Shown here one piece after another: positions 4,966 to 63,717 of a stretch of 64,000 nucleotides of DNA (within the stretch, counting starts at the first letter, position 1; the number at the start of each line of letters is the position of its first letter). Location: IMG/VR virus record IMGVR_UViG_2912889086_000006, positions 1 through 64,000 of that record. One strand, written 5' to 3'. Under the pieces are notes generated by a model. It was not told where the DNA came from and made no database searches. It saw nothing but the letters and a program-made list of their open reading frames with translations. The DNA is from an uncultured virus (IMG/VR IMGVR_UViG_2912889086_000006). Taxonomy: Duplodnaviria; Heunggongvirae; Uroviricota; Caudoviricetes. Both the position numbers and the translations under genes were made by a program.

Positions 4966-5220
4966 TTATGCAATCTGAATCACATGTGAAATGTAATCAA
5001 GTCCTTCAAACTCCATAGCGGTCATAACTGTTTCAGTGTAATAAATGCCCTTATCCAGTTCATGAATTTCAATACCCCTAGATGACAAATAATCTAAGAC
5101 ATTATCATTTATATTGTTCAATGAAAATACAATTCCGTTTGCACATTCGAACCGTTTTGGATTTGTTGAAACCTTACCTCTTAAAATTTCCTCAATGGTT
5201 TTTAAATCTAAATGTCTCAT
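4966..5220 (-). CDS. hypothetical phage protein (start MRHLDLK)
   Basis: ORF; GGAGTGG RBS before ATG 5220. Confidence 0.6.
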   Translation of the reverse strand: MRHLDLKTIEEILRGKVSTNPKRFECANGIVFSLNNINDNVLDYLSSRGIEIHELDKGIYYTETVMTAMEFEGLDYISHVIQIA

Positions 5221-5254
5221 GTTTAACCACTCCATTCTGTTTAAAATATGCATT

Positions 5255-5449
5255 TTATTTATTTAATAGTTGATACACGTTTTCCATACTATCCATCATG
5301 TCGTGATCCATCGTATGAAATACTTCTAAGTCATACTCTTCTAAAAGCACATTTTCTAATTCTTCGTACTTCTCATCAATTTTTAGTTCGTATTCTCTAG
5401 CTACCATTAGCATGGATTTAAACGCATGAATTAAATCCATTTCATTCAT
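5255..5449 (-). CDS. hypothetical acidic phage protein
   Basis: ORF with AAAGGGA RBS. Confidence 0.6.
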   Translation of the reverse strand: MNEMDLIHAFKSMLMVAREYELKIDEKYEELENVLLEEYDLEVFHTMDHDMMDSMENVYQLLNK

Positions 5450-5513
5450 ACTAACATCCCTTTTCTTTTTAATTTGTATTTTATTGCATGAATAATATAG
5501 AGTTATTCCTGTT

Positions 5514-5576
5514 GCAACCTCCCCAGTGAGGGGAACGCTGGCGGCTTAATGCCTATTTAACGTCGCCGCCACGACT
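5514..5576 (-). ncRNA. pistol self-cleaving ribozyme
   Basis: Minus strand: GUCG-UGGCGG-CGAC G UUAAAUAG GCA UUAAG CCGCCA GCG UUCCCC-UCACU-GGGGAG GU UGC. Contains P1, loop/CCGCCA pseudoknot, P2, P3, the conserved UUAAAUAG/UUAAG/GCG segments and the GU cleavage site. Confidence 0.9.
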
Positions 5577-53425: not shown

Positions 53426-53674
53426 ATGCTTAGTAAGACAGTTTGCGGCATGATGAATTTAGAAATATCGCGAATCTCTAATGCTACAACTCAAGATCTA
53501 GCCATACTGGATTCATACTATGCCATATCAGATGATCGAGTTGATTTGACTGAGTTAACTCTACTACACAAAAATGGAAAAGTTTTAGGGACAGTCACAG
53601 TACATAATGTGAAAATTTCTTGGAATGGATTTAAAAAGGGAGAGAACATCATTGACTCAAATATACACTCATGA
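53426..53674 (+). CDS. hypothetical protein
   Basis: GAGGAG RBS; TTGACA-17-TATATT promoter at 53352-53380. Confidence 0.6.
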   Translation: MLSKTVCGMMNLEISRISNATTQDLAILDSYYAISDDRVDLTELTLLHKNGKVLGTVTVHNVKISWNGFKKGENIIDSNIHS

Positions 53675-55949
53675 ATGTGTGCGAGATTATTTCAAGAAAC
53701 ATGGATGTGAACTTATTTCAGAATTTAAAAACGTTAAGCAGATACTTTCTTACAGATGTGTTTGCGGAGAAATAGGAACTACAAATTTTTATTCATATAG
53801 AAACAGTCTCCATAAAAAATGCATTAAATGTGTAAGAAAAAAAGCAAATAAGCCAAATAAATTAAACTTTGAATATGTAAAAAATTTTTTCAAAGAGAAT
53901 AATTGCGAGCTCCTTGAAACCACGTATATTAATAGCTCTACTAAGATGGCTTACATCTGTTCGTGCGGGAAAAAAGATTATAAGACATGGAATAAATTTA
54001 GGACTGGACAAAGATGTAAGGATTGTGCAATAAATCAGAATGCTGAAAAACAGAGAACAGATACTTCATATGTTGAAAACTTTCTAAAAAAACATGGATT
54101 TTCAATAGCCAATGGGAAATATGTAAATGCAAATTTTAAAATGTTGCTTATTTGCCCATGCGGAAAACAAACTGAACGAACATGGAGTTCAGTTAAACAG
54201 AGCCCAAGATGCAACTGTTCAATTCATTACACAAAGCCCTTAAAAAGAAAATTTTCAAAAGAGGAACTGATTAATTTTTACTGGAAATTAAAGAACGATC
54301 TTGGAAGATACCCTAGTTTAGAGGATCTAAAGAAAAATCCGTCTTCCCCTTCCCCATCTGTTTACGAACGAAAGTTTGGGGGATGGGTAAGGTTTTTAGA
54401 GAGTATTGGTGTAATGACTAGCGACAGATGGTATGTTGATGACATTGAAACCTTAAAACGTATGTATGCTGACTACTCTTATGAGGACATAAACGATGCT
54501 CTCATTAAGAAAAGGAGTAAAAGCACAATACAGCATAAAGCAAATAGCCTCGGATTAAAAAAATCTTATAAAGCTAAATTTGGAAAAGAAAAATTCTCAA
54601 ATGATTATTTAATAACCTTTCTAAGGAATTTCTACGACAAATACAATCGAACTCCTGTTGCAAAAGATTTTGCAGAAAATGATTTAAACTATGATACTTT
54701 CACTAAACGTTTTGGATCATGGAATAATGCGCTAAAAAAAGCTGGTCTACCAATTAATAGAGAACGATCAAAAAATCTCTCTAATAATGATTTACTTAAA
54801 ATGAAGGAAATGTATGAAGCAGGAGTTAATATGCAAGATATAGCAAAACACTTTAATTATACACATACTGCGCCTATTTATTATCATTTGAATAAGATGA
54901 ATGTTAATCTAACACGTAATAATCGCTGGTCTAAAAAACAAATCCACTATTTGAAAGCTCACTATCCTAACGCAGAGTGGAAGGAATTACTTAAAAACCT
55001 TGCACCTTTTTCAAAAGAGGGTATTACTACAAAGGCTTATAAACTCGGCATAAAAAGAAACTCAAATTTTTACACCGAAAAAGAAGAAAAGATTCTTCGA
55101 AAATTTTATGGAAAAGTATCTTTTCATGAACTCCTTAAGATGTTGCCTAATAGAACGGAATCTTCTGTTGTTTCTAAAGTTAATCATATGGGTTTAAAAA
55201 TTAGAGAATTTTGGAGCGAAGAAGATATTAACATGCTGAAAAAACATTATCAGACCTCAACTGATGAAGAATTATTAAAAATGTTCAAAGATAGATCATG
55301 GTCTTCGATTCAAAGTATGGCAACAAAAAATTTGAATCTAAAGAGAACGAAGGAATATTACAAAAATAAAAAAGAAAAAATTAGAGATCATCTAATCAAA
55401 GAACTTATAGAGTACGCTAATGCTTTAGGAAGAACACCTACATCAGTAGAAGTTCAAAAGAACCGAAACCTGCAAGGAATTTCAACATATATTAGGTATT
55501 TTGATGGTTACAGAAATGCTTGTCTAAAAGCAGGTCTTGATCCTAATCAATCTATTTTTGGCAGCTCAATTCACTGTATATCATTAAATGGGGATATATG
55601 CCTTTCAAAAAAAGAGAAAGAAATAACCGACTTATTTATAAAAAATAACATAACGTATGAAAAAGAGGTTCTTTATAAAGATATACTAGGCAAAAATAAC
55701 ATTCCAAATATAAGAGTTGATTGGTTTGTTAACAACAGAGTCATTGTTGAGTATTTCGGAATGACAGATAAAGATTATTATAAAAAAAGAGCTAATTATA
55801 AAATAGAGTTTTGTAAGAAGTATGACATCCCATTGATTCCCCTGTACCCTGATGATTTAACGAATAACTACAAAGGCTTAAAAGAAAAATTTAAAACTCA
55901 TGGAATTAACTTTTGGAATGGAGATGGGCAAAATGAACAAATACGTTAA
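53625..55949 (+). CDS. free-standing homing-endonuclease-like protein (Zn-ribbon repeats, HE-associated helical repeats, C-terminal PD-(D/E)xK/Vsr-like nuclease)
   Basis: Three CxCG…CxxC-type units; three (L)GR(T/Y)P…Y..(R/K)FG.W/Y..AL..AGL repeats; WS.E(D/E)..L repeats; SKKEKEI…YEKEV…RVDWFV…IVEYFG. Confidence 0.75.
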   Translation: MDLKRERTSLTQIYTHECVRDYFKKHGCELISEFKNVKQILSYRCVCGEIGTTNFYSYRNSLHKKCIKCVRKKANKPNKLNFEYVKNFFKENNCELLETTYINSSTKMAYICSCGKKDYKTWNKFRTGQRCKDCAINQNAEKQRTDTSYVENFLKKHGFSIANGKYVNANFKMLLICPCGKQTERTWSSVKQSPRCNCSIHYTKPLKRKFSKEELINFYWKLKNDLGRYPSLEDLKKNPSSPSPSVYERKFGGWVRFLESIGVMTSDRWYVDDIETLKRMYADYSYEDINDALIKKRSKSTIQHKANSLGLKKSYKAKFGKEKFSNDYLITFLRNFYDKYNRTPVAKDFAENDLNYDTFTKRFGSWNNALKKAGLPINRERSKNLSNNDLLKMKEMYEAGVNMQDIAKHFNYTHTAPIYYHLNKMNVNLTRNNRWSKKQIHYLKAHYPNAEWKELLKNLAPFSKEGITTKAYKLGIKRNSNFYTEKEEKILRKFYGKVSFHELLKMLPNRTESSVVSKVNHMGLKIREFWSEEDINMLKKHYQTSTDEELLKMFKDRSWSSIQSMATKNLNLKRTKEYYKNKKEKIRDHLIKELIEYANALGRTPTSVEVQKNRNLQGISTYIRYFDGYRNACLKAGLDPNQSIFGSSIHCISLNGDICLSKKEKEITDLFIKNNITYEKEVLYKDILGKNNIPNIRVDWFVNNRVIVEYFGMTDKDYYKKRANYKIEFCKKYDIPLIPLYPDDLTNNYKGLKEKFKTHGINFWNGDGQNEQIR

Positions 55950-56184
55950 TCACTTGACATTGACTATAGCCGCTTACCAAACAACTCTTGGTAACTCAGA
56001 AGATGAAGCTAAACAATTTACCGAATATGACCTCTTGGATTTTGGTGGATTTGAAGAATTGAAAGAAATAACATTAATAAATTTTGACGGTGCTAAGATA
56101 ACCCTTCAAGCCTCTAATATGGGGCTTGAAATTGAGGATACTGAAGAAATTGATAAAGAAGATGAACTGCTATACATAAAATAA
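55932..56184 (+). CDS. acidic hypothetical protein (MNKYVNHL…)
   Basis: GGAG RBS; followed by terminator-like GACTCTGC/GCAGAGTT-T run. Confidence 0.55.
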
Positions 56185-56272: not shown

Positions 56273-59200
56273 TTGAGTCAACAGTTGAAAATTGTAGTAA
56301 CTCCCGTTGCTGATACTTCCACTCAATCGGTTGAACAAATTAACAAGCAGCTTAAAACACTACAATCCAAGTTAAACTACCTTCAACTCAAAACGAATAT
56401 TGATGCTTCCGCTCTAAAAACCCTCAAAGAATTCTCTTCTGCAGTTGAAACATATCAAAAAAATCTTAAGAATTACAATCAGACAGTTAAAGAAACACAA
56501 ACGGTCATTAAGAATGCTGACGGTACAACTGAAAAAATCATTCAGCAACACAAAAAGAATGGTGAAATACTTCAGCGAGAAATTAAGACGATTGATAATC
56601 GAAATCAAAAGATTCGTCAAGAAGCTCAGGAAACAGCAAAATTAACATCTGAAATTCAGAAACTTGGACAAGCTCAGAAGATTATTGAACGGCAAAATGC
56701 TCAGGGTGTAAAAACAGGATCAACTCAGAAAAACCGTGACGGTTTTAGGGATATTACGTACAATCTCGATCAAAACGGTAATATTAAAAACTCAACCACT
56801 GTAACAAATCTTGATCAACAAAGAAAGGCAATTGAACAGCTTAGAGCAAGCTTGCAAAAATTAAAAGAGCAAGGGCAACTGTCTGAAGTCACCCTCTCTT
56901 CTCTTGGACGAAAAATTAATTTAGCTCAGTCTACAGAACAGATTGAAGCACTCAGAGCCAAGCTTAAGACTCTTGATGACAAGTCAGCAGCAGTTGCAAA
57001 AACTAAAGAGATTGAAAGGCAGTTAGAACTATATAGAAGACAAGCCCAGGTAAATACTCAGAACCTGCAAAACAGATACGGCAGCTCATTGAGCAATGCA
57101 AGTAATCAACAACTTCATCAGTATTTGAATTCTGTTAATCAATTGACTGCAAGGACACCTAATCTAACAAATCAGATGGCTAGTCTTAATATGCAGTTTA
57201 GGGAAATGTCATCAAACATTGCTGCTACTACAAGGCAGACAATGGGTTTTGGTGAGCAGCTTCAAGTAGCAATGTCCCGCGTGCCTGTGTGGATGGCATC
57301 TATGACACTTTTTTACATGCCAATAAGATTGCTATCAGATCTCACCAGTCAAGTTATATCGCTTGACACTCAAATGACTGGCTTACGACGGGTTATGGAC
57401 TTACCTGATTATAAGTTTAACGAGCTTCTTCAAAGATCTATTGACTTGAGCGATGAGTTAGCAAACAAGACTTCAGATGTTCTTACCATAATGAACGAAT
57501 TTGGGCGTATGGGTTACAAAGATGATGAGTTATTGGATCTAACCAAGACAGCTCAAATGATGGAGAACATTAGTGAACTACAACCTGAAGATACCGTTAA
57601 AGCTCTCACAGCAGCGATGGTCAACTTCGGAATTCAATCTAAAGACAGCTTAAAAATCGCCGATGCATTGAACGAAGTTGACAATAATTTCCAAACAAGC
57701 ACATTGGATTTAGCTCAATCAATGAGAAAGTCAGCTGCCGCTGCAAAAGTATATGGCGTGAGTATGGAAGAGTTATTGGGATTAAGCTTAGTCCTCCTTT
57801 ATAGCAATATAAAGGTAATAAACCTCTCTAATTGCTGGGAACTCCTTATGGGACAATCAGCAGCGAAGCCTCATCTGAGGAACGTTCAACGACTATCGTA
57901 TAGGCGGTGAAATTCCGCAAAACGAGTAGGGCGCAAGCTATTGGCGTGGGTGAGAACCCCTTAAATCGAAACGGGAGGCATCCCAATGGGATGAAGATAT
58001 AGTCTAGACTTATAGGTAACTATAAGCAGTAAACAGCGCATACAATGTAGCGAGTTGTATGGAATGATTCGATACTACAGCCATTCAATCATCCACTAAA
58101 GAAAGTGGTAACATTGTCGGTAAAATGATTGCTGACATTAAATCTCTTCTGATTGACTTGGAACTCCTAACGTTTAGTCGAGGACGACAAGGGGCAAGCG
58201 TAATGGTAGCCTGAACGACTGAGTGAAGAGACACAGAAATGTGAAGCGACAGTCTGAACTCTATGGAAACATAGAGAGTGAGGTTGAAGCGCCTCACCGC
58301 CATTTATAATGGTCAGTAGCCTTTTGGTGAAAGTAACAGAATTGAACGCCTTAAAAACAATATTTGCCAGAATCCAAACAAATGGAGCAGCAATTAAAAG
58401 TCTTGAGAGTGTAGGAATTGCAGTTAAAGATGTTGGTGGAGAAGCAAGACCTGTCTCTGATATACTCGAGGAACTCGCTTCTAAGTGGGATAGTCTCTCT
58501 GAAGCACAGAAGCAGCAAATCGGGGTTTCATCAGCAGGTATGTTTCAAAATACTCGATTAATTATAGTCGCCTTATACAGTAATGTATAAGTGAAAACCC
58601 AGTGAACCCTATTGCTCAGGGGTGTGTCCTTATCAAAGGATGCTAACGGTGGAACTCTAAGGGAGAAATCCTATGACAATACCGTGCCAAGCCTTGGTTA
58701 CTAGGAAGGTGTAACGACTAGCCTAACGGCGTAGAACAGACATTGAGCTACTGTTCAAAGTGCTGGGCATCCTTTTAGGATGAAGATATAGTCTAGTCCC
58801 CTACTTAAATATCGGGAAACCGAGGGTATAAACGTTTTAGCGCTCATGGAGCAATGGAGTACGGCTGCCAAGGCCACAACTACTGCAATTAACAGCCAGG
58901 GATCTGCGATGCGCGAGCAAGAACGCTACTCTGAAAGTTTGGAAGGACGCCTAAACAGATTATCTGCTGCTTGGACAGGTCTTGCAGCAAATGCAGGTGA
59001 TGCTTTCCTTTCTGATGGGATAATAGCTTTTGCCGAAGCATTAAGAGACATCGTTCAAGTCGGCGGGGAAGTTATAAAAACGATTGGATTCTTACCGAGT
59101 ATTTTTGCTTTAGCAAGTACTGCCACTCTTCTTCTTAGTAAAAATGTAAGAATACTTGCAACCACACTTGTGCTCGGTACTTCTGCAATGAGACAAGAAA

Positions 59201-62200
59201 CACTTGCAAGCATAGGTCTAAGTACAGGTATGACTCGTGCAGCAGTGGCATCGAATCTATTGAAAACTGCACTTAGGGGATTAATGGTTGCGACGGTTGT
59301 CGGTGCTGGTTTCATGGCTTTAGGCTTCGTAATCGAAAAACTTGTCTCTGCTTATTCTGATGCTAAACAAGAACAAGAAAAGCTTGCAGAGTCACAAAAG
59401 AAAAGCGTTGAAGCAATAACCACAAATAAAGAACAGACCGATCAGTTAATACAAAAATATAAAGAGCTGCAAAAAGCTAAAGATAAAGGCACCCTTTCCG
59501 CTGATCAAGAACAAGAATACCTTCAAGTAACGCAACAATTAGCTCAGACGTTCCCTAATTTGATTTCTGGCTATGACTCCCAAGGTAATGCCATCATTAA
59601 AAATAATGAAGCGTTAGAAGATGCCATAAAATACACCAAAGAATTAGCCGAATTAAACAAAAAAGACATACAAACTGGCGCAAATAGCAACTTTAAAGAA
59701 ACCCTGAGTGATATCAGTAAGCTGACTGATGAGATGAAAGAGTACCAAAAAGTTGCAGACCATTATAAAAACAATGATCGGCCATTCTGGGACATCTTCG
59801 ACAGCGACAGTGATTATAAAAACTTTGGAATTAAAGCTGAACAGCAAGCTCTTCAAGTCAATCAGAAGTTATCTAGTTCTCAAGCTAAACTTAGAGAACA
59901 GGTGCTACAAACTGTTGACGCTTATAACTCCATTAAAATCAACCCTCAGTTAACCAAAGATATTAACGAAGCCTTCAATAAAATTGACTTCAGTAAGATG
60001 AATTCTGATGAATTAGAGTCGTTTTCCATTAATGTTTCAAAATACATGGATGACATTCAGAAAGCATTAGAATCAGGAAATAAAGTTGATTTCTCAAGAG
60101 CATCTCAAGCACTTCAGAATTTAATTAACCAACAAATCAAAGGTTCTGATGAAGCTGATAAGCTTTCCCTATCATATGATGATCTTAAAGATGCACTTGA
60201 CTCTACAAAAAATGCTGCTGATTCTGCAAAGATCACTTGGGATGAGAATGGTGAAGGCGTAAACGAATTAACCGGAGAAGTTGAAGATTTAAGTCAAAAG
60301 CTCAAGGATGCCAAAGGTGATCTAGAGGCAATAAAAGCTGTAATGGACGATTTGGTGGCTTCTCAACAAACAGAGCTAGCTATTTCTGCCCTTCAAAATG
60401 AAGCATATGATTCTTTTGCCGACTCCATCTCCCCTCTCAATGAACTGCTTGAGAAAATGGCAGAAGGAAAAAGTATCTCAGCTGCTGAAGCAATGAAACT
60501 GGTTCAAAAAGAAAAAGACTTGGCTGGAGCTATTAGTGTTGAAAACGGCGTAGTTAAATTGAACCGAGATGCTATCATAAAACTACGTGATGCAAAACTT
60601 AAAGCATACAACGATATGCAAAAGTCAGTTAAACAGGATCTAATAAACCAGGCAAACGCAACAGTTAAGAAAATAAAGAACTATGGTTTAGAAGTCAAAT
60701 CAATCCAGACTGTTGCCGATGCCCAAGCCAACCTTTCCAAAATGAGAAAAGAAGTAGACACATTAATGGAAAGTGGCAATATCCAGATGGCAATGCCAGT
60801 CATTAAAGAAATAAATGAATTGAGCGACGTCACTGGACAGTTAGAAGATCTGGATAAAATGGCTGAATTGGCCAACTCATCTTTAAATGAAGTTGGTACA
60901 TCCCTCGAGAAATATTCTGACGAACAAGAAAAAGCCAGCAAAGAAACTGAGAAATCCAAATACGTCATTGATAAATATAAAGAAGCTCTTGAAAAAGTAA
61001 ATGCGGAAATTGAGAAATACAACAAGCAAACCAATGATTATCCTAAATGGTCACAAAAATACAGAGATGCAATCAATAAGGAAATCAAGGCATTAGAGCG
61101 TAAGAAAAAGCTAATGCAAGATCAGATTAAACTGCTGAAACAGCAAATCAAATCTGGTTATATTCCTCAAACTGGACTTGTTACCTCCTCTTCCTCTTCT
61201 GGTTCTTCATCAGGCTCATATTCTCCTGGAGGATCATATTCCGGAAAATACTCTTCTTATATTAATGCTGCAGCAAGCAAATATGGTGTTGACCCTGCAC
61301 TAATCGCTGCGATTATTAAACAAGAATCAAACTTCAATGCCAAAGCTCGTTCTGGCGCTGGAGCAATGGGTTTGATGCAACTCATGCCTGGTACTGCAAA
61401 AAGTCTAGGTGTAAAAAATGCATATGATCCATACCAAAACATTATGGGCGGTACCAAATATATTGCTCAAATGTTAAACAAGTTTGGAGGGAACATCGAG
61501 AAAGCTTTAGCTGCTTACAACGCGGGGCCAGGAAACGTAATTAAATATGGTGGCACCCCTCCTTTTAAAGAAACGCAAAATTACGTTAAGAAAGTACTCT
61601 CTAACTACAATAAGAGCTTATCAACAGCGACTTCAAAGATCGCAAATTATTACACGAGCAGCAATGGATTTAGAGTAAGTTCAAAGTTTGGAGCGAAAGA
61701 GAGTGGTCTCCGCTCCTCCCCTCACAAAGGAACCGACTTTGCAGCTAAAGCGGGCACCCCTGTAAAAGCATTAAAAGCTGGTAAAGTCATAACCGCTACC
61801 TATTCAAAAACAGCAGGTAACTGGGTTGTTGTTCAACAAGACGATGGAACAGTTGCAAAATATATGCACATGCAAAACGGCCTTAAAGTTAAGAAAGGTG
61901 ATGTTGTATCTGCTGGCCAAGCAATAGGTAAAGTAGGAAGTACTGGACACTCAACAGGAAACCACCTCCACCTACAAATTGAACAAAATGGCAAACCAAT
62001 TGACCCAGAAAAGTATATGCAGGGTTTAACCTCAGATCTTTCTCAGTCTGAAGCTGAAAGACAACAAGCCCTTTCACAGGCAAAATCGGATTTAATCGGT
62101 TTGCAAGGTGATTTAGACGCAGTTAATGATCAAATTCAAGATCTGCAATACGAATTGGTTCAATCCAAGCTTGATGAATTTGATAAACGGAAATCTGATC

Positions 62201-63717
62201 TAGAAGTCAAAATTGCTCAAAATGAGTCTTTGGCCAAACGCTATCTTTCTGACAGCAAAGAATTTCGCAAATATACAAATGAGCAGAAGAAAGCTGTTGA
62301 TGAGCAACGCAAAATTCAACAGCAAAAAATTAACTGGATCAACAAAGAGTTAAAAACAAATAAAAAACTTAACTATGCTCAACGCGATCAACTAAGAGAA
62401 GAACTGAAACAGGCTAAATTAGATCTCATCTCCTTACAAGATCAAGTCAGAGAGCTGCAAGGGGAACTAATTCAGTCACAGGTTGACCAGACACTCAATA
62501 ATATTGAGAAATCTGTTAAGAAAACTGAATCCAAGCTTAAAGATGTTGATATCAAGATTCAAATGACTGAGGATGACAATCAAAAAGTCAAGTACTACAG
62601 TCAGCAAATAAAATTGATTCAACAGCAACAAGCTGAAGCAAAAAAGTACATTAAGCAACTTGAAGCACAGAAAAAGGCAGCTAAAGGTTTCCCTGACATC
62701 CAGAAACAAATCACAGAGGAAATTGAAAACTGGAAGGATAAACAGAAGGAATACAACCTGGAGCTTTATAACACCAAGAAGTCCATTAAAGATATCTATA
62801 AATCACTCGCAGATGAAGTCGTTTCAATTTATAAAGAAATGTACGAAAAGATGCGTGATATTGAGCTGGAAGCACATCGAAAAGCAACTCAAGATATAAT
62901 CGATGAAATTGATAAAGAAGACGACGAAGCCAAGTTCCAGAAATCCCTTAAAGAAAAACAGGATGCCATTCAAGAAACAAAAGACAAGATAAGCAAACTG
63001 TCTCTCGATGATTCAGATGAGGCAAAAGCAAAACTAAAAGATTTAGATAAGCAACTCCAAGAACAACAACAAGATCTTGATGAATTTTTAAAGGATCGTG
63101 AGAATTCTAAACGTAAAGAAGCATTACAGGATCAACTTGAAAAAGATGAGAAATCAATAAACACCAAGTATGATGATCTTGTCAACGACGAAAGAGCATT
63201 TAAAAAGCTTGAGGATAAGTTGATGAATGGAAAGATTACCGATATCGCCAAGCAGCTTAATGAGTTTTCAAAGTTCATTAACAGCAACATGGAATCTATT
63301 GGTAAGAGCATCTCCAACAATCTAATTGATAAGCTTAAAGAAGCCTCCAAAGCTTTAAATGTTGTAGTCGCTGGAAACACCACAGGTAAAAAAGTTGCCT
63401 CTTTTGATGTTGGTGGCTATACAGGAACATGGGGCAGTTCGGGAAGACTTGCAATGCTCCATGAGCAAGAACTTGTTTTAAATAAAGCTGATACAAGCAA
63501 TGTTTTGAAAATTGTTGAGCTCACCCGAAACATTTTTGGAGATATCCAAACAAAAGCTGCAATCCCTTCCCCTAATGCTACATCTAATCAAACGACAAGT
63601 AACCAAACATTTAATTTTAACTTTAATGTAGATAAGATGACTGGCTCTAAAGATGATGCAAATAAATTCTTAGGAGAAGCATTTAACATTGTATCAGCTA
63701 GAGGGGTTAAAATTTAG
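56273..63717 (+). CDS. yomI: tape measure protein/cell-wall hydrolase CwlP, four exons: 56273-57782, 58072-58121, 58345-58558, 58835-63717 (2218 aa spliced)
   Basis: Exon lengths 1510+50+214+4883=6657 nt, one open frame reading …[31 protein letters not shown]…QNTR-F-LALMEQW…; SLT (QESNF…GLMQLMP) and M23 (HKGTD…HLH) domains. Confidence 0.92.
57783..58071 (+). ncRNA. group I intron 1 (IA-like, ORF-less, 289 nt)
   Basis: P1 GGGAU/GUCCU with U.G at 57782/57791; P AAUUGCUGGGAA, Q AAUCAGCAGC, R GUUCAACGACUA, S AAGAUAUAGUCU; terminal G 58071. Confidence 0.93.
58122..58344 (+). ncRNA. group I intron 2 (lacks P7 insertion, ORF-less, 223 nt)
   Basis: 7-bp P1 UGUCGGU/GCUGACA; P3 UCUCUUC/GAAGAGA; R CUGAACGACUG, S AAGCGACAGUCU (P7 GACUG/CAGUC); terminal G 58344. 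Confidence 0.9.
58559..58834 (+). ncRNA. group I intron 3 (IA-like, ORF-less, 276 nt)
   Basis: P1 CGAU/GUCG with U.G; P CUAACGGUGGAA, Q AAUACCGUGC, R GUGUAACGACUA, S AAGAUAUAGUCU; terminal G 58834. Confidence 0.92.

What the first reader, a model, noticed from the sequence alone, without database searches (positions are those of the whole stretch)
57783..58834. Three tandem self-splicing group I introns in the tape-measure/CwlP gene
Seen: the gene appears broken into 545-, 93- and 1623-aa ORFs. However, three 223-289 nt inserts each have a P1 helix with U.G at the 5' splice site, P/Q/R/S core elements and a terminal G. Removing them joins exons, including 50-nt and 214-nt mini-exons, into one 2218-aa frame: …[30 protein letters not shown]…TR-F-LALM…, which matches the conserved YomI core. 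Introns 1 and 3 are related (shared GCATCC…GGATGAAGATATAGTCTAG, both inserted at GAT|TAA); intron 2 is a different subtype. Known: a three-intron gene was reported in Staphylococcus phage Twort, but the SPbeta introns I know of are in ribonucleotide reductase genes. Inference: tail assembly depends on three splicing events, and automated annotation would wrongly call this prophage defective.
Basis: partly seen in the sequence, partly recalled or inferred. Interest (0 to 1): 0.92.

Follow-up and report, generated by a model that had tools for sequence, protein, structure and literature searches.

The report
Three introns split phage tape-measure gene
The tail-length (tape-measure) gene of this SPbeta-like Bacillus prophage is cut into four pieces by three small self-splicing-type group I introns, which is real but is a further example of something already described in other Bacillus prophages.

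Summary
Three inserts split a yomI-type tape-measure/CwlP gene: 57783-58071 (289 nt), 58122-58344 (223 nt) and 58559-58834 (276 nt). Removing them gives one 2218-aa frame. That frame is collinear, with no gap at the junctions, with the intron-less YomI of phage Goe11.

Each insert is exactly absent in at least one close relative. Each follows a U that pairs with G in P1 and ends in G. Each matches the Rfam group I model, but only intron 1 passes its threshold: 102.6, 27.9 and 45.8 bits against a cut-off of 50. The intron 2 and intron 3 families show compensatory base changes. Exon 4 is under purifying selection like exon 1, which argues that splicing works.

Relatives use at least six insertion sites within about 130 codons, and two relatives also carry three introns.

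The kind is known: group I introns in tape-measure genes of B. cereus-group prophages (PMC2504315) and three introns in Twort orf142. This scan has also noted tape-measure introns on other DNA. I found no report for SPbeta-like phages. Splicing itself is inferred, not shown. Verdict: a new member of a known kind, of moderate interest.

The parts
56273..57782 (+). Exon 1 of the tape-measure gene (503 codons plus 1 nt; TTG start)
   Evidence: tblastn of Goe11 YomI aa 1-502 on 56273-57772. PF10145 PhageMin_Tail matches aa 390-502 and phrog_4211 (tape measure) scores E 1e-138.
57783..58071 (+). Intron 1, 289 nt, ORF-less group I intron of the IA type (an extension lies between P7 and P3')
   Evidence: RF00028 at 102.6 bits against a cut-off of 50. 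P1 with U.G appears in the MFE fold. It is exactly absent in L017. Its core is 92-95% identical to the SPbeta bnrdF intron on either side of yosQ.
58072..58121 (+). Exon 2, 50 nt
   Evidence: YomI aa 507-522 match 58074-58121 at 81% identity. In L017 it is contiguous with exon 1, and in L007 and L020 with exon 3.
58122..58344 (+). Intron 2, 223 nt, compact ORF-less group I intron without P2 and without a P7.1/7.2 extension
   Evidence: RF00028 at 27.9 bits, E 1e-4 in a local scan. P1 with U.G appears in the MFE fold. It is exactly absent in L007 and L020. On the family alignment 22 of 63 pairs show compensatory changes, against 6.8 in shuffles.
58345..58558 (+). Exon 3, 214 nt
   Evidence: YomI aa 523-594 match. 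PF10145 profile positions 136-197 match.
58559..58834 (+). Intron 3, 276 nt, ORF-less group I intron of the IA type
   Evidence: RF00028 at 45.8 bits, E 4.5e-10 in a local scan. It is exactly absent in L006, L007 and L008. On a 10-sequence family alignment 29 of 69 pairs show compensatory changes and the U.G at the 5' splice site is kept in 10 of 10.
58835..63717 (+). Exon 4 (2 nt plus 1626 codons plus stop), carrying the SLT and Peptidase_M23 domains
   Evidence: YomI aa 596-2193 match 58840-63555 at 62%. PF01464 and PF01551 match. dN/dS is 0.10-0.16 against L006, L007 and L017.

Best explanation
The yomI-type tape-measure/CwlP gene of an SPbeta-like provirus is interrupted by three ORF-less group I introns. 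The host is probably of the Bacillus licheniformis group, because the closest named relatives are in B. paralicheniformis and B. glycinifermentans. All three introns lie in or just after the conserved PhageMin_Tail core. After late transcription each intron would fold into its ribozyme. Its guide sequence pairs with the last 4-7 exon bases (P1, U.G at the cut), an external guanosine attacks the 5' splice site, and the freed exon end then attacks behind the terminal G. Three such events join four exons into an mRNA for a 2218-aa protein. The introns are selfish, mobile or formerly mobile elements that persist because splicing hides them. They are polymorphic among close relatives. They arrived by DNA recombination with short flanking exon tracts, and members of one intron family sit at different sites that share only the short P1 target. 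Shown here: the boundaries, ribozyme-type structure, presence/absence polymorphism, the restored frame and purifying selection on the downstream exon. Inferred: actual splicing, its efficiency, and the route of mobility.
For: Collinearity with intron-less YomI, with no indel at any junction. Exact absence of each intron in at least one close relative. Rfam group I matches for all three, with I1 far above the cut-off. MFE folds recover P1 with U.G, with z-scores of -2.4 to -3.0. I3 family: 29 of 69 pairs are compensatory, and P1 covaries with the exon at a different site. I2 family: 94% of cells are paired and 22 of 63 pairs are compensatory, against 6.8 +/- 1.9 in shuffles (0 of 500 reach it) and 3-7 in slid controls; this includes one compensatory pair in the P7 pseudoknot. 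The core of I1 is 92-95% identical to the bnrdF intron, which the SPbeta record annotates as an intron. Distant relatives of I2 lie between the halves of a split coat gene and a split RNR gene. dN/dS of exon 4 (0.10-0.16 against L006, L007 and L017; 0.245 against L008) is of the same order as exon 1 (0.04-0.09), and the frame is open to the end of each locus in the 4 relatives checked. Exon identity to the window dips locally around the missing intron: L006, which lacks I3, drops to 77/40/70/77% in four 30-nt bins; L017, which lacks I1, drops to 87/70%. Elsewhere identity is mostly 90-100%. This is what co-conversion would leave.
Against: No direct evidence of splicing. The only RNA data were contigs from mixed food (meta)transcriptomes, and their exon-exon joints carry the letters of other alleles, so they may be intron-less DNA or RNA alleles. 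I2 and I3 fall below Rfam's curated cut-off. The covariation structures were derived from the same alignments on which they were counted, and 5 of the 7 I2-family rows are close relatives. No homing endonuclease gene lies inside any intron; the longest stop-free stretch is 37-60 aa. Mobility therefore needs a helper that I did not identify. The record is a provirus fragment that CheckV estimates as 57% complete, so whether the phage is active is unknown.
Confidence: 0.85

Rival explanations
1. One or more of the introns, most plausibly the low-scoring I2 or I3, has lost ribozyme activity. The tape-measure protein is then truncated and the prophage is tail-defective.
For: I2 (27.9 bits) and I3 (45.8 bits) are below the Rfam cut-off. 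There are no splicing data. The provirus record is incomplete.
Against: Both families keep their helices through compensatory changes. I2 is 94-100% identical across 6 relatives and I3 is 97-98% identical in L017. Exon 4 downstream of all three introns shows dN/dS of 0.10-0.16 and stays open. The low Rfam scores affect the whole of both families: at the gathering threshold only the I1 copies were found in 11 loci.
Confidence: 0.08
2. The tandem introns allow alternative splicing. Skipping both mini-exons (50 + 214 = 264 nt) stays in frame and would yield a protein 88 residues shorter. Skipping either one alone truncates the protein. Splicing choice would thus modulate or throttle tape-measure output.
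For: Frame arithmetic: skipping E2 gives a stop at aa 504, skipping E3 a stop at aa 522, and skipping both an open 2130-aa frame. Exon skipping between neighbouring group I introns is documented for Twort orf142 (23-nt exon) and for the SIOphi polymerase gene, where 47% of transcripts skipped an exon (passages in PMC10136302 and PMC11878797). I1 and I3 share the GAU| exon end and the UAGUC guide motif.
Against: Nothing here shows skipped products. The 88 residues removed are the second half of the conserved PhageMin_Tail domain, so the short form would probably not work. Relatives with one or two introns have no such option, yet keep the same gene.
Confidence: 0.1
3. The breaks are decay of a dead gene (a pseudogene with insertions) and not introns.
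For: Three stop-terminated ORF fragments are what a gene caller sees.
Against: The inserts have ribozyme structure, exact boundaries and polymorphic precise absence. The exons are collinear with an intact homologue, without any frameshift or internal stop. Purifying selection acts on every exon tested.
Confidence: 0.02

Closest known systems
Group I introns TMP-IVS1, IVS2, IVS3a/b in tape-measure genes of Bacillus cereus-group prophages (Tourasse & Kolsto 2008, PMC2504315; section 8 and passages read)
   Same: Same host gene family (tape measure) and same bacterial genus in the broad sense. The introns are small and mostly lack an endonuclease gene. Several sites occur per gene. Similar introns sit at different sites with an adapted P1, and different introns share one site with the same P1. 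Here these two patterns are I3-like introns at sites A and E, and a 333-nt versus a 276-nt intron at site E with the same P1. As in that study, the cores resemble SPbeta ribonucleotide reductase introns.
   Different: A different phage lineage (SPbeta-like, with a fused SLT/M23 CwlP part). This allele has three introns, against the two per gene that I could read from the text of that paper. At least six sites lie within about 130 codons. One intron (I2) is of a compact type, not IA1/IA2. I did not test whether any site is homologous to IVS1-3.
Staphylococcus phage Twort orf142 (Landthaler & Shub 1999; seen only as cited in PMC10136302 and PMC11878797)
   Same: Three group I introns in a single tail-structure gene, very short internal exons (23 nt there, 50 nt here), and two of the three introns of the same IA class.
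   Different: A tail tube gene and not a tape measure. Splicing and exon skipping were shown experimentally there and are not shown here. The two similar Twort introns are described as highly similar, whereas I1 and I3 here are only 61.9% identical.
SPbeta bnrdF intron carrying the yosQ HNH endonuclease gene (record NC_001884.1)
   Same: The core of I1 (nt 39-87 and 98-223) is 92-95% identical to the two parts of that intron that flank yosQ.
   Different: I1 has no endonuclease gene; a short hairpin replaces it. It sits in a different gene and has a different P1/P2 and 3' tail.
Geobacillus virus E3 tape-measure gene, annotated as two genes GP42 and GP43
   Same: A 304-nt relative of I3 (72% identical) splits the same conserved core, and the flanking exons join to the same motif as in the window.
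   Different: It sits at another site, five codons after site A, and is a single intron as far as I looked. The record annotates two separate proteins and not an intron.

Membership tests
Group I intron (Rfam RF00028) | Score at or above the curated gathering threshold (50 bits) | tested here: inconclusive
   I1 scores 102.6 bits and meets it. I3 scores 45.8 bits and I2 27.9 bits (19 bits in the whole-record scan), so they do not, but their E-values are 4.5e-10 and 1e-4 in the local scan.
Group I intron (Rfam RF00028) | P1 helix between the 5' exon end and an internal guide sequence, with U.G at the splice site | tested here: met
   MFE folds of all three recover it. U.G is kept in 10 of 10 rows of the I3 family, and P1 covaries with the exon at site B. 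U.G is present in the 5 close I2 rows.
Group I intron (Rfam RF00028) | Terminal G before the 3' splice site | tested here: met
   All three introns, and all 9 relatives extracted, end in G.
Group I intron (Rfam RF00028) | Conserved core P3-P8 with a P3/P7 pseudoknot, kept by compensatory changes | tested here: met
   I3 family: 29 of 69 pairs are compensatory. I2 family: 22 of 63, with 4 of 7 in P3 and 1 of 5 in P7, against 6.8 in shuffles. I1 aligns to the full model, positions 1-253. Caveat: the structures were derived from the same alignments.
Group I intron (Rfam RF00028) | Removal restores an uninterrupted host gene; intron-less alleles exist | tested here: met
Group I intron (Rfam RF00028) | Guanosine-dependent self-splicing | not testable with these tools
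   The RNA contigs could not separate spliced RNA from intron-less alleles.
TMP-IVS introns of B. cereus-group prophages | Group I intron inside a prophage tape-measure gene | tested here: met
   (tape-measure assignment) and the rows above.
TMP-IVS introns of B. cereus-group prophages | Same insertion sites or sequence kinship with IVS1, IVS2 or IVS3 | not tested
   The figures with the site sequences are not held, and I fetched no B. cereus-group tape-measure locus.
Homing (endonuclease-carrying) group I intron | Endonuclease ORF inside the intron | tested here: not met
   The introns are 223-289 nt, and the longest stop-free stretch in any frame is 37-60 aa.

The most novel reading that the evidence does not exclude
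The conserved core of SPbeta-type tape-measure genes is a shared landing pad. ORF-less group I introns hop between at least six sites in it, recognising only a 4-5-base exon end (CGAU, GGAU, CGGU). That fits reverse splicing better than endonuclease homing. In three-intron alleles the tandem ribozymes also yield an in-frame exon-skipped product lacking 88 residues, so splicing choice would tune tape-measure output or length.
Probability: 0.1. Interest if true: 0.6.

Novelty: new member of a known kind. Interest (0 to 1): 0.38.

Why it matters
For annotation, gene callers report three fragments here. In Geobacillus virus E3 the same situation was deposited as two tape-measure 'proteins'. The Rfam threshold catches only one of the three introns. 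Such prophages risk being scored as defective or having their largest structural gene mis-described.

For biology, the locus and its relatives form a compact natural series. One gene core carries six sites, one to three introns per allele, the same intron family at different sites, and different introns at one site. That series could be used to study how endonuclease-less group I introns spread and adapt their guide sequences, and whether closely spaced ribozymes interfere with each other. It does not reveal a new kind of element.

Tried and rejected
1. RNA evidence. One run search and one read laying gave only assembled contigs from mixed food (meta)transcriptomes. A contig in X4 joins 57782 to exon 2 and runs on into intron 2, but its exon 2 letters are those of the L017-type allele, which lacks I1 in its DNA. 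A contig in X1 joins exon 3 to exon 4 with letters of yet another allele. Neither shows splicing. Intron bins were about 10-30 times deeper than exon bins in X1, but depths are summed over all organisms that hold related introns, so I draw nothing from this. Other joints (57687>58593, 58828>58106 and others) fit the arrangements of relatives and were not pursued.

2. Open frame as evidence. Very many alternative boundary pairs also give an open 2218-aa frame. An open frame does not fix the junctions; intron-less homologues do.

3. Rfam at the gathering threshold on 11 related loci found only the I1 copies in 3 loci. I therefore used alignments and covariation instead.

4. Nuclease domain in the upstream 774-aa protein. 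Pfam and NCBIfam at loose thresholds and a PDB sequence search gave nothing convincing for the C-terminal 140 aa. Its presence does not track intron content among relatives.

5. Literature. Searches found no report of tape-measure introns in SPbeta-like or B. licheniformis-group phages. Subscription-only papers are not covered.

6. The P10 pairing was inspected by eye only and looked weak for I1 and I3. I make no claim about it.

Full report
**What is there.** The window is the first 64 kb of a 73,156-base IMG/VR provirus record. Between 56273 and 63717 on the + strand, a gene caller would see three ORFs of 545, 93 and 1623 aa. Pfam and PHROGs assign the first to the tape-measure family: PF10145 PhageMin_Tail matches aa 390-502 and phrog_4211 scores E 1e-138. 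The 93-aa ORF region matches the end of the same Pfam domain. The last ORF carries SLT and Peptidase_M23 domains. This is the yomI/CwlP architecture of SPbeta.

**Boundaries.** I ran tblastn of the intron-less 2295-aa YomI of phage vB_BsuS-Goe11 (L001) against the window. The matches were:
- aa 1-502 on 56273-57772
- aa 507-522 on 58074-58121
- aa 523-594 on 58345-58560
- aa 596-2193 on 58840-63555

The residues not covered are exactly the split codons and a few flanking residues. Joining 56273-57782, 58072-58121, 58345-58558 and 58835-63717 gives 6657 nt, 2218 aa and one terminal stop. That product is 60.9% identical to YomI over 2213 aligned residues, with no gap near the junctions. The intron phases are 1, 0 and 1. 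An open frame alone would not fix the boundaries, because many other boundary pairs also stay open. The homologue, and above all the intron-less alleles, do fix them.

**Natural presence/absence.** Fourteen IMG/VR loci and two genome loci encode close relatives. The genome loci are B. paralicheniformis KJ-16 and B. glycinifermentans GO-13. L012 and L021 are the same contig. BLAST of the seven parts of the window against these loci, followed by base-level inspection, showed:
- I1 is present in L006-L009 and L020, and exactly absent in L017.
- I2 is present in L006, L008, L009 and L016-L018, and exactly absent in L007 and L020.
- I3 is present in L017, and exactly absent in L006-L009 and L020.

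In each intron-less allele the flanking exons abut at the predicted bases. Every intron follows a T and ends in G.

**Ribozyme character.** Rfam RF00028 matches I1 at 102.6 bits against a cut-off of 50, over the full model. A local scan adds I3 at 45.8 bits (E 4.5e-10) and I2 at 27.9 bits (E 1e-4). The I2 alignment is right for P3-P9 but misplaces P1. MFE folds of all three recover P1, formed by the exon end and an internal guide with U.G at the cut. They also recover P3, P4-P6, P8 and P9, with z-scores of -2.4 to -3.0.

I1 has about 75 nt between the 5' strand of P7 and the 3' strand of P3, and I3 about 38 nt. That is where IA introns carry P7.1/P7.2; I recall this criterion and did not test it. 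I2 has no such extension and no P2.

The core of I1 is 92-95% identical to the SPbeta bnrdF intron on both sides of the yosQ endonuclease gene, and a short hairpin replaces that gene in I1.

For the I3 family I aligned 10 sequences from five different insertion sites. RNAalifold finds 69 pairs, 29 of them with compensatory changes. U.G at the splice site is kept in 10 of 10. P1 changes together with the exon at another site.

For I2 I aligned 7 sequences. They include a relative that splits a P22-type coat gene in MW202674.1 and one in a Desulfovibrio phage. Another relative lies between two ribonucleotide reductase ORFs of a roseophage. On a structure that includes the P7 pseudoknot, 94% of cells pair. 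Of 63 pairs, 22 show compensatory changes, against 6.8 +/- 1.9 in shuffles (0 of 500 reach it) and 3-7 when the partner is slid. Two caveats apply: the structures came from the same alignments, and five of the seven I2 rows are close kin.

**Is the gene alive?** dN/dS between the window and relatives with other intron sets is 0.04-0.09 for exon 1. For exon 4, downstream of all three introns, it is 0.10-0.16 against L006, L007 and L017, and 0.245 against L008. The frame stays open to the end of every locus checked. Selection on the downstream exon is hard to explain unless the introns are removed from the mRNA. This is the main indirect argument for splicing. Direct evidence is lacking (see 'tried and rejected').

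**A crowded landing site.** Mapping YomI on all 16 loci showed that every one has at least one insert in this core. With Geobacillus virus E3 there are six sites within about 130 codons:

| Site | Position | Where found |
|---|---|---|
| A | after IAD | ten more distant loci; I3-like intron, 88-92% identical to I3 |
| A' | after NEVD | Geobacillus virus E3; 304 nt, 72% identical to I3 |
| B | within the valine codon of NNYAV | L018; 337 nt |
| C | I1 site | window and relatives |
| D | I2 site | window and relatives |
| E | I3 site | window and relatives |

In E3 the record lists two tape-measure proteins, GP42 and GP43, on either side of the intron. At site E the more distant loci carry a different 333-nt intron that is 61% identical to I3, with the same exon end and the same guide sequence. 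L016 (sites A, D, E) and L018 (sites A, B, D) also have three introns, so the window is not unique. Sites A and E share only the exon end CGAT. The window itself has GCCGAT at site A but no intron there.

**Traces of movement.** Compared with the window, L006 lacks I3 and is otherwise 90-100% identical. Its exon identity falls to 77, 40, 70 and 77% in the four 30-nt bins around the I3 site. L017 lacks I1 and falls to 87 and 70% at the I1 site. Such local patches are what co-conversion during DNA-level intron gain or loss would leave. The intron-plus alleles use CGA for the arginine codon that pairs with the guide, where the intron-minus alleles use AGA.

None of the introns holds an endonuclease gene. 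Directly upstream lies a 774-aa ORF (53625-55949). It has three HNH_repeat domains and an N-terminal part like annotated phage HNH or homing endonucleases. It is variable among relatives and does not track intron content. I found no nuclease domain. It is a candidate helper and nothing more.

**Comparison with what is known.** Tourasse and Kolsto (PMC2504315; section 8 and passages read) described group I introns at three sites in tape-measure genes of B. cereus-group prophages. Those introns are mostly endonuclease-less and of classes IA1/IA2, with cores resembling SPbeta reductase introns. The authors reported the same two patterns seen here: similar introns at different sites, and different introns at one site with the same P1. 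Their table also lists a tape-measure intron in Lactobacillus phage JCL1032.

Three introns in a single gene, with a 23-nt exon and exon skipping, are known from Twort orf142. Up to three introns per gene, with 47% exon skipping in one case, are reported for Bastillevirinae (passages in PMC10136302 and PMC11878797).

Six literature searches found nothing on SPbeta-like or licheniformis-group tape-measure introns. Earlier notes of this scan report tape-measure introns in at least 33 other genomes, some in SPbeta-like phages and some with four or five introns. Those are unchecked AI notes, and I did not use them as evidence.

**Verdict.** It is a clean, well-bounded three-intron allele of a known phenomenon in a phage lineage where I found no published report. 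It sits inside an unusually dense intron hot spot. Splicing, its efficiency, any exon skipping (only the double skip of 264 nt stays in frame) and the means of spread remain to be shown.

Noticed in passing
window 5513-5576 (-): Pistol self-cleaving ribozyme, RF02679. It scores 59.9 bits against a cut-off of 34.5 and matches the full model, in an intergenic stretch of the provirus.
   Followed up: no
window 53625-55949 (+): A 774-aa ORF lies just upstream of the intron-rich gene. It has three HNH_repeat (PF18780) domains, PHROG matches to HNH endonuclease families, and an N-terminal part like annotated phage homing endonucleases. No nuclease domain was found. It is full-length in L014 and L019 and its C-terminal part reaches the cut end of L013; it is partial in L006 and L009, and absent from 10 other loci, with a weak C-terminal match in L015. 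It is a possible free-standing homing endonucle­ase acting in trans.
   Followed up: partly
L002 (Geobacillus virus E3, NC_029073.1) 4979-5282: The two annotated tape-measure 'proteins' GP42 and GP43 are exons of one gene, split by a 304-nt group I intron that is 72% identical to I3. GP35, about 3 kb upstream, resembles aa 268-758 of the window's 774-aa ORF at 25% identity.
   Followed up: partly
L022 (MW202674.1) about 1483-1714; L024 (Roseobacter phage CRP-118) about 1483-1881: Distant relatives of intron 2 lie between two ORFs both annotated P22 coat protein, and between two ORFs both annotated ribonucleotide reductase. These are probably unannotated compact group I introns.
   Followed up: partly
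window 55900-56184 (+): A 94-aa ORF with no family match overlaps the end of the 774-aa ORF by 50 nt. It is conserved (78-92% identity) directly upstream of the tape-measure gene in 15 of 16 related loci.
   Followed up: no
L016 and L018: Two relatives also carry three introns in the same core, in other combinations: sites A, D, E in L016 and sites A, B, D in L018. By BLAST the site-B intron of L018 looks like a mosaic of I1-like and I3-like parts.
   Followed up: partly
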